This document shows, piece after piece, positions 26,201-29,200 of a stretch of DNA of 64,000 nucleotides. The DNA comes from Escherichia coli (GTDB taxonomy: Bacteria > Pseudomonadota > Gammaproteobacteria > Enterobacterales > Enterobacteriaceae): the NCBI RefSeq assembly GCF_017348835.2, contig NZ_CP071375.1; one strand, given 5' to 3'. How positions within the stretch are numbered: the stretch's first letter is position 1; the number at the start of each line of letters is the position of its first letter. The position numbers are program-made.

Positions 26201-29200
26201 CCGTATCCGCACGGCTGGGATGTGTGGAGCAACGGCATCAAAAAGTTTATGGCTGAAAAGGGGATTCAGCCGGACCTGATCTACACCTCGGAAGAAGCCG
26301 ATGCGCCACAGTATATGGAACATCTGGGGATCGAAACGGTGCTGGTAGATCCGAAACGTACCTTTATGAGTATCAGCGGTGCACAGATCCGCGAAAACCC
26401 GTTCCGCTACTGGGAATATATTCCTACGGAAGTGAAGCCGTTCTTTGTGCGTACCGTGGCGATCCTTGGCGGCGAGTCGAGCGGTAAATCCACCCTGGTA
26501 AACAAACTTGCCAATATCTTCAATACCACCAGTGCGTGGGAATATGGTCGCGATTATGTCTTTTCACACCTCGGCGGTGATGAGATCGCATTGCAGTATT
26601 CCGACTACGATAAAATCGCGCTGGGCCACGCACAATACATTGATTTTGCAGTGAAATACGCCAATAAAGTGGCGTTTATTGACACTGATTTTGTCACTAC
26701 CCAGGCGTTCTGCAAAAAGTACGAAGGGCGGGAACATCCGTTCGTGCAGGCGCTGATTGATGAATACCGTTTCGATCTGGTGATCCTGCTGGAGAACAAC
26801 ACGCCGTGGGTGGCGGATGGTTTACGCAGCCTCGGCAGTTCGGTGGATCGCAAAGAGTTCCAGAACTTGCTGGTAGATATGCTGGAAGAGAACAATATCG
26901 AATTCGTGCGGGTTGAAGAGGACGATTATGACAGCCGTTTCCTGCGCTGCGTAGAGCTGGTGCGGGAGATGATGGGGGAGCAGGGATAACCGTGACGAAA
27001 CTGCTCAAAGGCGAGGTATAAAATGAGTTTTTTTGATGAGTTGAAAACCTCTCTGGAAGAGAATGTCGAGATTAGAAAGAACCTGTACGGGTGACCCGCT
27101 ACGAAATTGCGGATGCTTAGGCTATTCGTGAGCAACTTCATACTCCAACCGACCGGTTGCGTAGCCAGAATGCAATCAAATCTGACAGTTCGCTTCGGCG
27201 CGCGCTTTGGTGTATTTACCGGAGTAAATCAGCGTGCCGTGGAAAATTATGCGCAGCGCTTCTGCTGATTTGCGTACCTTCGCAGATGATAAGTCCAGCA
27301 CTGGCGCGCTGCGCGTAATACTCCGCCATCATGTCAATCGTAACGTCACCCGCACCGGCGCGGGAACGCGTCATCGGTGGCAGTACAATACGGTTTATTA
27401 ATGGCAACGCATTCAGCGCATATTTAGCAAATTACGTAATGGGTTCCTCGCGCGATTATTTATACAGTTCGGCACTCATGGTGACGGTATTGCCCATGCG
27501 AGCGCTGGTAATTTTGTATTCAGAGGCGTTCATCTCTTTCGCTTTCTGCGCAATAACCGCTTCAGCGGAATCCAGTGTTGTACCGGTTGCTGTCACGCTT
27601 TGCGCCGATGCGTTAAACGCCGCGACAGAGAAAAGAGAAGCCGTAAAAATTGCGATGATCGTTTTCATGTTTATATTCCAGAGTGTCTTAATTGTTTGGC
27701 GTTTATTAACGCGATGGGGAGAGAATACGCCTGCTGCCTGATAACATAAATGATACAAATGGCAATAGACTATTCTGTTTTTGTTAATAATCAGACGCCG
27801 GACGTGCCGACGTCTGTCAATCGCATCAGGCAACAAAGTTGTCCTTCAGCGCCTTGAGACCATCCCGATAGATGCCGGTAAACAGCGCCTCGGCTTCTTC
27901 GTCCGTCACATTCACCGGGGTGAATTCACCGAACCATTCCACACGGGAAACCTGGATGTCGGCGGTTTCATGAACGGTAATGGTGGAGAGGTAATCCACC
28001 ACCGGGAACGGTGCCTGAATAATGGAATAGGTATAACTGCGTTGACGGTTATTAAACGCTTCCAGACGTTCAACCACAGTGCCGCCGTCAGAGGTTGTCA
28101 GCGAACGAACGCGACCGCCTTCTGTCACCACACTTTTCGGGATGAATGGCAGCCAGTCTGGCAGCGCATCAAAGCCGCCCATCAATTGCCATACGGCGTC
28201 GGCAGAAGCCGGAATTTCGATCGATACAGTTGTTTTAGCCATGATAATTTTCTCTTAATTTATAGGGTTACATTGTCAGGGTGTCGACGACGCCGCCATC
28301 GACGCGCAGGGCTGCCCCTGTGGTTGCCGAGGAAAGCGGTGACGCGAGATAAACCGCCAGATTCGCCACTTCTTCCACATCTGCCGCACGCTGGATGATG
28401 GAACTCGGACGCGAGGTTTTAACAAACTCATCGGCCTGTTCACGCGCACTGCGTCCCGATTGTGCAGCGGCATCCGCCAGCATCTCTTTCAGGCCATCGG
28501 TAAAGGTTGGCCCTGGCAGAATGGCGTTGACGGTCACACCGGTCCCTGCCAGTCGTTTCGCCAGACCATGAGAAACCGCCAGATTTGCGGCTTTGGTGAC
28601 GCCGTAGTTGATCATGTCGCCAGGGATTGCCACGCCAGATTCAGACGAGACAAAGATAATCCGCCCCCAGCCCTGTTCCGTCATGCCTGGCGCATAGTGA
28701 CGCGCCAGACGAACGCCGGAGAGGACGTTGACGTTATAGAAGTGCATCCACTCATCATCCGGAACGCTAAAGAAATCTTTATCGTTAAAAATGCCCAGAT
28801 TATTGACCAGCACATCAGCCGTTGGGACTGCAGCGATCAGCGCAGCCACGCCGTCTTCGGTGCTGAGATCCGCCACCACGCCGCGCAGTGACGCTGTGGG
28901 AGTTTGTGCCGCAATCGCAGCCATGGCGTCATCAACGCCGCTCTGTTTACGGCCGACGACAACCACCGTTGCGCCTGCTTTTGCCAGTCCGGCGGCGATA
29001 CCCTGCCCAATGCCGGAGGTTGAGCCGCTGACCACCGCGACTTTACCTGTCAGATCCAGTTTCATCGTTTTCTCACCTGGTTGATTAACGGGTCGGCAGC
29101 GGAGCGTTTTCCGCAACCAGATTTTGACGGCGCATTTCTGCCCAGAATTCAGCCGGAACAGGCGCATTCAGTGCAGCCAGATCTTCTGCCATACGGCCAG

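What the first reader, a model, noticed from the sequence alone, without database searches (positions are those of the whole stretch)
27216..27407. Old-Yellow-Enzyme (NemA-like) remnant at the nadR-proximal edge of the cluster
A 63-codon minus-strand ORF carries a clear OYE N-terminal signature (PLTR-like motif, MAEYYxQRASAGLII, TQIS) but stops after ~60 residues and has too little DNA downstream for a full gene. Hand translation of the other frames downstream shows no OYE-like continuation. A decayed third reductase suggests the cluster once was larger and that this edge is a deletion scar.
Basis: seen in the sequence. Interest (0 to 1): 0.45.

Follow-up and report, generated by a model that had tools for sequence, protein, structure and literature searches.

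The report
Decayed Old-Yellow-Enzyme pseudogene beside nadR
This is the dead remnant of a flavin-dependent alkene reductase gene at the edge of a small accessory gene cluster in E. coli, wrecked by point mutations and two deletions; it is an ordinary pseudogene that NCBI's genome annotation already flags.

Summary
Window 27194-27437 (minus strand) is a relic of an Old-Yellow-Enzyme (OYE, PF00724) gene. It lies at the nadR-proximal end of a 4.1-kb accessory cluster (LysR, aldo/keto reductase, SDR, SRPBCC, DUF1471) inserted between nadR/nadS and ettA in an E. coli chromosome.

An intact 365-aa ortholog sits in the same position of the same cluster in a divergent Escherichia (strain E69) and in Yokenella. 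Against it the relic shows four lesions:
- start codon ATG changed to ACG;
- codon 2 changed from TTA to TAA;
- a clean 686-bp internal deletion, leaving codons 1-58 fused out of frame to codons 288-310;
- loss of the 3' end.

Other E. coli strains keep 58 more bases of the gene plus one or two extra genes before nadS. The window type (440 of 482 island-bearing complete genomes) lost these in a second deletion between 5-bp repeats (CGAAG), so the "deletion scar" idea is supported.

In the relic, 8 of 9 changed codons alter the amino acid, against 8 of 70 in the five intact neighbours. No complete E. coli genome (0 of 5,426) has the full gene. RefSeq already annotates the relic as an incomplete oxidoreductase pseudogene. 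Low interest.

The parts
27264..27437 (-). OYE relic, segment A: former codons 1-58 of the reductase. The start codon is mutated to ACG (27435-27437) and codon 2 to a TAA stop (27432-27434).
   Evidence: Alignment A1 against the intact orthologs of E69, E. whittamii and Yokenella, which read ATG TTA here; all three E. coli variants read ACG TAA. tblastn E=4e-28. 95.1% nucleotide identity to E69.
27444..27449 (-). Former ribosome-binding site (GAGGAA) of the OYE gene. It is still present, 6 nt upstream of the dead start codon.
   Evidence: Read directly from the sequence. Conserved in alignment A1.
27263..27264 (.). Junction of the 686-bp internal deletion (OYE nt 175-860, that is codons 59-286 plus 2 nt). 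It shifts the reading frame and shows no microhomology.
   Evidence: L008 5096-8979 aligns to window 31147-27264, and L008 9666-9736 aligns to window 27263-27193. Junction sequences were read. Three E. coli variants aligned read the same junction, and all listed E. coli matches to E69's sequence are two-piece.
27194..27263 (-). OYE relic, segment B: former codons 288-310 (EALRIIFHGTLIYSGKYTKARAE), in a different frame from segment A.
   Evidence: tblastn E=3e-10. 98.6% DNA identity to E69. The residue string is identical to E69 residues 288-310.
27193..27197 (.). Junction of the second deletion, with the 5-bp microhomology CGAAG. It removed OYE nt 932-989, the variable gene slot and about 16 bp of nadS-side sequence.
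   Evidence: The window jumps from L073 3144 to L073 4726, and from L074 3150 to L074 4160. The flanking sequences both carry CGAAG at the break. 440 of 482 island-bearing genomes carry this junction.
27216..27407 (-). It is a chimeric reading: OYE codons 11-58 followed by 15 out-of-frame codons of segment B.
   Evidence: The nearby GAGGAA site serves the dead ACG start, not this TTG.
27023..27169 (+). nadS relic (small gene after nadR) that abuts the OYE relic. A 10-bp deletion relative to K-12 gives a stop after 23 codons.
   Evidence: Alignment to K-12, translation, NCBIfam NadS match of the K-12 product at E=3e-19, and PGAP 'NadS family protein' pseudogene labels in sister genomes.
27456..27668 (-). 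Intact DUF1471 (YdgH/BhsA/McbA family) gene immediately upstream of the relic on the same strand. It is the last working gene of the cluster.
   Evidence: Pfam PF07338 E=2.4e-11. PGAP annotation.
27826..31116 (.). Rest of the accessory cluster: SRPBCC (27826-28242, -), SDR (28268-29065, -), aldo/keto reductase (29085-30095, -) and the divergent LysR regulator (30229-31116, +).
   Evidence: Pfam hits. PGAP annotation. K-12 homology stops at 27126 and resumes at 31230.

Best explanation
The feature is a non-functional relic (pseudogene) of a class-I Old-Yellow-Enzyme alkene reductase. That gene was once the sixth and last gene of a LysR-controlled accessory cluster (LysR | AKR-SDR-SRPBCC-DUF1471-OYE). 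In the lineage of the cluster that sits between nadR/nadS and ettA in about 9% of complete E. coli genomes, the gene was inactivated before the E. coli copies diversified. Four lesions are shared by the E. coli variants examined: the start codon became ACG, codon 2 became a stop, 686 bp were deleted from the middle, and the last ~110 bp were lost. The internal deletion removed codons 59-287, which include the catalytic His/Asn/Tyr triad and most of the FMN-binding barrel. A later deletion between two 5-bp CGAAG repeats then removed another 58 bp of the relic. It also removed the one or two genes that other strains carry between the relic and nadS, and this gave the window's form. The relic does nothing enzymatic, and the 63-codon ORF is an accidental reading frame across the deletion junction. 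Shown directly: homology, synteny with intact orthologs, exact breakpoints, the shared lesions in the aligned E. coli copies, and relaxed constraint. Inferred: the order of the early lesions, the slippage or illegitimate-recombination mechanism of the second deletion, and the lack of expression.
For: OYE homology. An intact syntenic ortholog is present in E69 (L008 8806-9903, 365 aa) and in Yokenella L011. The exact 686-bp gap is mapped. The start-codon mutation, the nonsense mutation and the internal deletion are shared by three E. coli structural variants but absent from E69, E. whittamii and Yokenella. Other E. coli strains retain OYE to nt 989 plus extra genes, and the window lacks L073 3145-4725 with CGAAG at both break points. 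The window-type junction occurs in 440 of 482 island-bearing complete genomes, so it is not an assembly error. No E. coli complete genome holds a full-length copy. Between the window and E69, 8 of 9 changed codons in the relic are nonsynonymous against 8 of 70 in the five intact neighbours, Fisher p=4e-6. PGAP already labels it 'oxidoreductase, incomplete, missing C-terminus' as a pseudogene. There is no Rfam family and no terminator-like site in the region.
Against: Nothing contradicts pseudogene status. Some uncertainties remain. The 63-, 61- and 67-codon alleles differ by in-frame indels. This could hint at preservation of the ORF, although slippage in the GGTGCG/GGTGAC repeat is a possible cause. 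No transcription or translation data were examined. The polarity of the second deletion rests on parsimony: the 58 extra OYE bases in other strains cannot have come from unrelated insertions.
Confidence: 0.95

Rival explanations
1. The 63-codon ORF is a genuinely expressed small protein, a micro-protein salvaged from the OYE N-terminus with a new role.
For: The ORF stays open in several E. coli alleles (61, 63 and 67 codons), and the indels between them are in frame.
Against: 8 of 9 codon changes against the intact ortholog are nonsynonymous. The TTG start has no ribosome-binding site of its own; the nearby GAGGAA site serves the dead ACG start, which is followed immediately by TAA. The last 15 codons are out-of-frame sequence. 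The fragment lacks the catalytic triad and nearly all of the barrel. PGAP calls it a pseudogene.
Confidence: 0.03
2. The relic survives because its DNA or RNA serves the neighbouring genes, for example as a 3' UTR or terminator of the DUF1471 transcript, or as a buffer between the convergent cluster and nadR-nadS.
For: It lies directly downstream of DUF1471 on the same strand, so it is probably co-transcribed. This is an inference from gene order.
Against: No terminator-like hairpin was found on either strand in 26900-27900. There was no Rfam match. The region tolerates indels and a further 1-1.6 kb deletion in most strains.
Confidence: 0.04
3. The apparent truncation is an assembly or sequencing artefact, and a complete gene exists.
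For: None found.
Against: The identical junction occurs in 440 independent complete genomes. Two breakpoints are mapped to the base. No full-length copy exists in 5,426 genomes.
Confidence: 0

Closest known systems
Intact syntenic ortholog: 365-aa alkene reductase of Escherichia strain E69 (CP089930.1; L008 8806-9903) and of Yokenella regensburgei (L011)
   Same: It occupies the same position in the same cluster, directly after DUF1471. The retained DNA is 95-99% identical to E69, and segment B is identical in 23 of 23 residues.
   Different: The window copy lacks the start codon, codons 59-287 and codons 311-365. In E69 the cluster sits beside pitA-yhiN, not at nadR-ettA.
Shewanella oneidensis SYE1 (PDB 2GOU), a class-I Old Yellow Enzyme
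   Same: It is the best sequence match among solved structures for the intact ortholog (464 bits, E=2.8e-138, full length).
   Different: The window relic keeps only 81 of about 365 codons and cannot form the barrel.
E. coli NemA (N-ethylmaleimide reductase, b1650)
   Same: Same family. The intact ortholog scores 396 bits against the NCBIfam NemA subfamily model, and the N-terminal motif matches (PPMTRSRA...AEYYAQRASAGLII against APLTRLRS...AEYYRQRASAGLII).
   Different: It is only 48% identical, and 396 bits is just under the model cutoff of 403. It is a distinct paralog, not a nemA duplicate.
RefSeq/PGAP pseudogene annotation at this locus (e.g. CPH39_RS26640 'oxidoreductase; incomplete; missing C-terminus')
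   Same: The annotation covers window 27261-27416. Some genomes also annotate the second fragment as 'alkene reductase'.
   Different: PGAP does not record the internal-deletion structure, the dead start codon or the second deletion.

Membership tests
Old Yellow Enzyme / Oxidored_FMN (PF00724), as a sequence relative | Significant match to the family profile above the curated cutoff | tested here: met
   PF00724 at 32.6 bits against a cutoff of 27, E=6.6e-8. NCBIfam NemA subfamily at E=1.1e-13.
Old Yellow Enzyme, as a functional enzyme | Complete (beta/alpha)8 FMN-binding barrel of about 340-400 residues | tested here: not met
   Only profile positions 12-65 of 342 are matched. Only codons 1-58 and 288-310 of 365 are retained.
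Old Yellow Enzyme, as a functional enzyme | Catalytic His-His/Asn pair and Tyr proton donor (PETNR H181/H184/Y186; E69 H183/N186/Y188 in the motif ELHGANGYL) | tested here: not met
   The motif lies in the deleted segment, codons 59-287. The role of these residues comes from established OYE literature, not from a test here.
Old Yellow Enzyme, as a functional enzyme | Translatable ORF with a start codon and ribosome-binding site | tested here: not met
   ATG is changed to ACG and codon 2 is TAA.
Pseudogene (decayed ortholog) | An intact ortholog exists in conserved gene order elsewhere | tested here: met
   E69 L008 and Yokenella L011 carry LysR-AKR-SDR-SRPBCC-DUF1471-OYE.
Pseudogene (decayed ortholog) | Disabling lesions relative to the ortholog | tested here: met
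   Start-codon loss, a nonsense codon, a 686-bp frameshifting deletion and a 3' truncation.
Pseudogene (decayed ortholog) | Relaxed selective constraint | tested here: met
   8 nonsynonymous to 1 synonymous changed codons in the relic, against 8 to 62 in the five neighbouring genes, Fisher p=4e-6. The sample is small (9 changes).
Pseudogene (decayed ortholog) | No expression of a functional product | not testable with these tools
   No transcriptome or proteome data are available here.

The most novel reading that the evidence does not exclude
The reductase may have been lost repeatedly because selection favoured its loss, not by neutral decay. Two Escherichia lineages deleted overlapping but different internal segments: E. 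coli lost OYE nt 175-860 and E. whittamii lost nt 127-764. Other genera carry the cluster without the OYE. In addition, the space next to the relic in other E. coli strains is a slot holding alternative genes (wHTH+TauE, DUF2846, GNAT) bounded by an ~18-bp imperfect inverted repeat. This could mark an unrecognised cassette-exchange site at nadS.
Probability: 0.1. Interest if true: 0.4.

Novelty: already known. Interest (0 to 1): 0.12.

Why it matters
It matters little beyond annotation hygiene. The work shows that the 63-codon ORF should not be called a gene. It gives base-exact breakpoints for two deletions. It also shows that the five-gene reductase cluster at nadR-ettA in about 9% of complete E. 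coli genomes is a trimmed version of a six-gene cluster found intact in a divergent Escherichia and in Yokenella. The locus is a small worked example of stepwise gene decay at a variable chromosomal site.

Tried and rejected
(1) I first read a third collinear OYE piece ('SDLIAF' against ADLIGF, window 27168-27185). I rejected it because that stretch is 96% identical to the nadS-side sequence of L073 (from 4726) and L074 (from 4160), beyond the deletion junction, so the resemblance is chance.

(2) The word-indexed protein search with the 63-aa ORF returned only short fragments and no full-length relative. Two of the fragments led to disrupted OYE genes outside the cluster: L003 (frameshift) and L004 (in-frame stop). 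I used them only as a scaffold for tblastn.

(3) I searched for a full-length copy in E. coli with the Serratia-type gene in distant mode and with E69's own sequence. None was found.

(4) Scans for a terminator or promoter and for Rfam families across 26800-27900 found nothing that would give the relic an RNA role.

(5) A literature search for an OYE pseudogene in E. coli returned nothing relevant. A search for nadS found only the PIRT-Seq report of nadS expression in K-12.

Full report
**Context.** The window is an E. coli chromosome. A 1-kb query around the finding is 100% identical to strains PE164 and F2_81. Gene order is deoABD-lplA-ytjB-serB-radA-nadR, then a five-gene accessory cluster, then ettA-slt-trpR. 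Against K-12, homology runs through nadR and a short nadS relic to window 27126 and resumes at 31230 just before ettA. About 4.1 kb here therefore replaces 120 bp of K-12.

The cluster contains:
- a LysR regulator (30229-31116, +);
- an aldo/keto reductase (29085-30095, -);
- an SDR (28268-29065, -);
- an SRPBCC protein (27826-28242, -);
- a DUF1471/YdgH-BhsA-McbA protein (27456-27668, -).

**Checking the observation.** The 63-codon minus-strand ORF at 27216-27407 exists. It matches Pfam Oxidored_FMN above the curated cutoff (32.6 bits against 27, E=6.6e-8, profile positions 12-65 of 342). It also matches the NCBIfam N-ethylmaleimide-reductase subfamily (E=1.1e-13). The OYE signature is therefore real and far beyond chance. 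NCBI's PGAP already marks this spot as a pseudogene, 'oxidoreductase; incomplete; missing C-terminus', corresponding to window 27261-27416. In some genomes PGAP adds a second fragment labelled 'alkene reductase'.

**Anatomy.** The protein-word search returned only short fragments. These showed that the ancestral N-terminus (MLFxxYxLNxLxLxNRIVMPPMTR...) begins upstream of the ORF's TTG. I rebuilt a full-length relative from a Serratia-type contig and ran tblastn against 26990-27470. It gave two collinear hits in different frames. Residues 3-59 scored E=4e-28. An alignment spanning residues 275-310 in the next frame, conserved from about residue 287, scored E=3e-10.

**Finding the intact gene.** A scan of one genome per species with the neighbouring SRPBCC protein recovered the same cluster in several genera:
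- Escherichia strain E69;
- E. whittamii;
- Trabulsiella;
- Yokenella;
- Yersinia;
- Serratia;
- Ewingella;
- Providencia.

In E69 (L008) and in Yokenella (L011), an uninterrupted 365-codon OYE follows DUF1471 directly. E69's cluster is 97.7% identical in DNA to the window's. It lies beside pitA-yhiN, and that flank is only ~93.5% identical to all E. coli, so I infer that E69 is a divergent Escherichia lineage. The E69 enzyme is 48% identical to K-12 NemA. It scores 396 bits on the NemA subfamily model, just under the cutoff of 403. Its best sequence match among solved structures is Shewanella SYE1, PDB 2GOU.

**Lesions, mapped to the base.** Four lesions separate the window from E69.
- *Start codon.* ATG is ACG at 27435-27437, although the GAGGAA ribosome-binding site is intact.
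- *Codon 2.* TTA is TAA at 27432-27434.
- *Internal deletion.* L008 8980-9665, 686 bp, is absent. Window 27264 abuts 27263 with no microhomology. The gap removes codons 59-286 and part of 287, including the ELHGANGYL catalytic motif, and shifts the frame.
- *3' truncation.* OYE homology stops at ~27194, which is OYE nt 931.

The first three lesions are shared by the three E. coli structural variants I aligned. They are absent from E69, E. whittamii and Yokenella. E. whittamii has a different internal deletion (L008 8932-9569, with CGCG microhomology). It retains bases that E. coli lacks and lacks bases that E. coli retains, so it is an independent event.

**The edge is a deletion scar.** Other E. 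coli strains keep the relic out to OYE nt 989 and then carry extra genes before the nadS relic:
- a winged-HTH regulator plus a TauE/SafE exporter (21 genomes);
- a DUF2846 gene (1 genome);
- a GNAT acetyltransferase (strain 1190).

The window jumps from L073 3144 to L073 4726, and from L074 3150 to L074 4160. Both break points carry CGAAG (window 27193-27197). The 58 extra bases in those strains are true OYE sequence contiguous with the relic, so they cannot have arrived with unrelated insertions. The window form is therefore derived by deletion. It is the common form, found in 440 of 482 island-bearing complete genomes. No complete E. coli genome (0 of 5,426) has a full-length copy.

**Constraint.** Between the window and E69, 8 of 9 changed codons in segment A are nonsynonymous. 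In the five intact neighbours the figure is 8 of 70 (Fisher p=4e-6). Nucleotide divergence is also somewhat higher in segment A (4.9%) than in the intact genes (about 2%). The E. coli alleles of the relic differ by several substitutions and small indels.

**Function.** The relic has none as an enzyme. It lacks a start codon, the catalytic residues and most of the barrel. The 63-codon ORF is OYE codons 11-58 read on into 15 out-of-frame codons. Its TTG start has no ribosome-binding site of its own. No terminator-like site and no Rfam family lies in 26800-27900. Co-transcription with DUF1471 is likely from position alone but was not tested.

**A lead I rejected.** A third apparent OYE piece ('DLIAF', 27168-27185) is chance. 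It lies in sequence shared with the nadS side of other strains.

**Verdict.** The feature is an ordinary pseudogene that is already annotated. Novelty: already known. Interest: low.

Noticed in passing
window 27023-27169 (+): This is a relic of the small gene nadS just after nadR. A 10-bp deletion relative to K-12 gives a stop after 23 codons. K-12's own 55-codon nadS matches only positions 1-46 of the 94-position NadS model, yet a PIRT-Seq study reports it as expressed (PMC12350097).
   Followed up: partly
L073 3196-3215 and 4710-4727; L074 3202-3221 and 4142-4159; L076 ~3720-3740 and ~4375-4395: In E. coli strains that keep extra genes between the OYE relic and nadS, the variable segment is bounded by an imperfect inverted repeat. 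The reverse complement of the left copy (AACTTCCGCTTTTGGCAC) matches the right copy (AACTTCCGCTTCTCGCTC) at 15 of 18 positions. The variable segment holds wHTH+TauE, DUF2846 or GNAT. The right copy is followed by GAAGCGGA, which forms an 8-bp hairpin. Whether this marks a cassette-exchange site is unknown. The window has lost all but the last arm.
   Followed up: partly
L009 8803-9263 (Escherichia whittamii): The same OYE carries an independent internal deletion (equivalent to L008 8932-9569, 638 bp, CGCG microhomology) but keeps its natural 3' end. No nadR lies within 8 kb, so the cluster sits at another chromosomal site there.
   Followed up: partly
L008 1-5095 (Escherichia strain E69, CP089930.1): The intact six-gene cluster lies next to pitA-yhiN. 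That flank is only ~93.5% identical to all 5,421 matching E. coli genomes. The strain labelled E. coli therefore appears to be a divergent Escherichia lineage, and the cluster has moved between chromosomal sites.
   Followed up: partly
L007 (JAIJJM010000574.1, 2,144 bp): A contig binned as a 'Collinsella sp.' MAG is 96.5% identical to this E. coli locus, including the end of nadR and the OYE relic. It is almost certainly a mis-binned E. coli contig.
   Followed up: no
L004 8001-9101; L003 7163-8268: The closest non-Escherichia OYE hits are themselves disrupted. One has an in-frame stop at codon 79 in a contig carrying a Serratia marcescens-named protein. The other has a frameshift near codon 92 in GCA_000950145.1. 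These could be real decay or sequencing errors.
   Followed up: no
L010, L013, L014, L015, L016-L019: The LysR-AKR-SDR-SRPBCC core is conserved across Trabulsiella, Yersinia, Serratia, Ewingella and Providencia, but the DUF1471-OYE tail varies. It is absent in T. guamensis, Serratia and Ewingella. Yersinia has DUF1471 only. In T. odontotermitis it is relocated upstream of LysR, with the OYE split at residue ~201. In Providencia the OYE lies 3 kb away.
   Followed up: no
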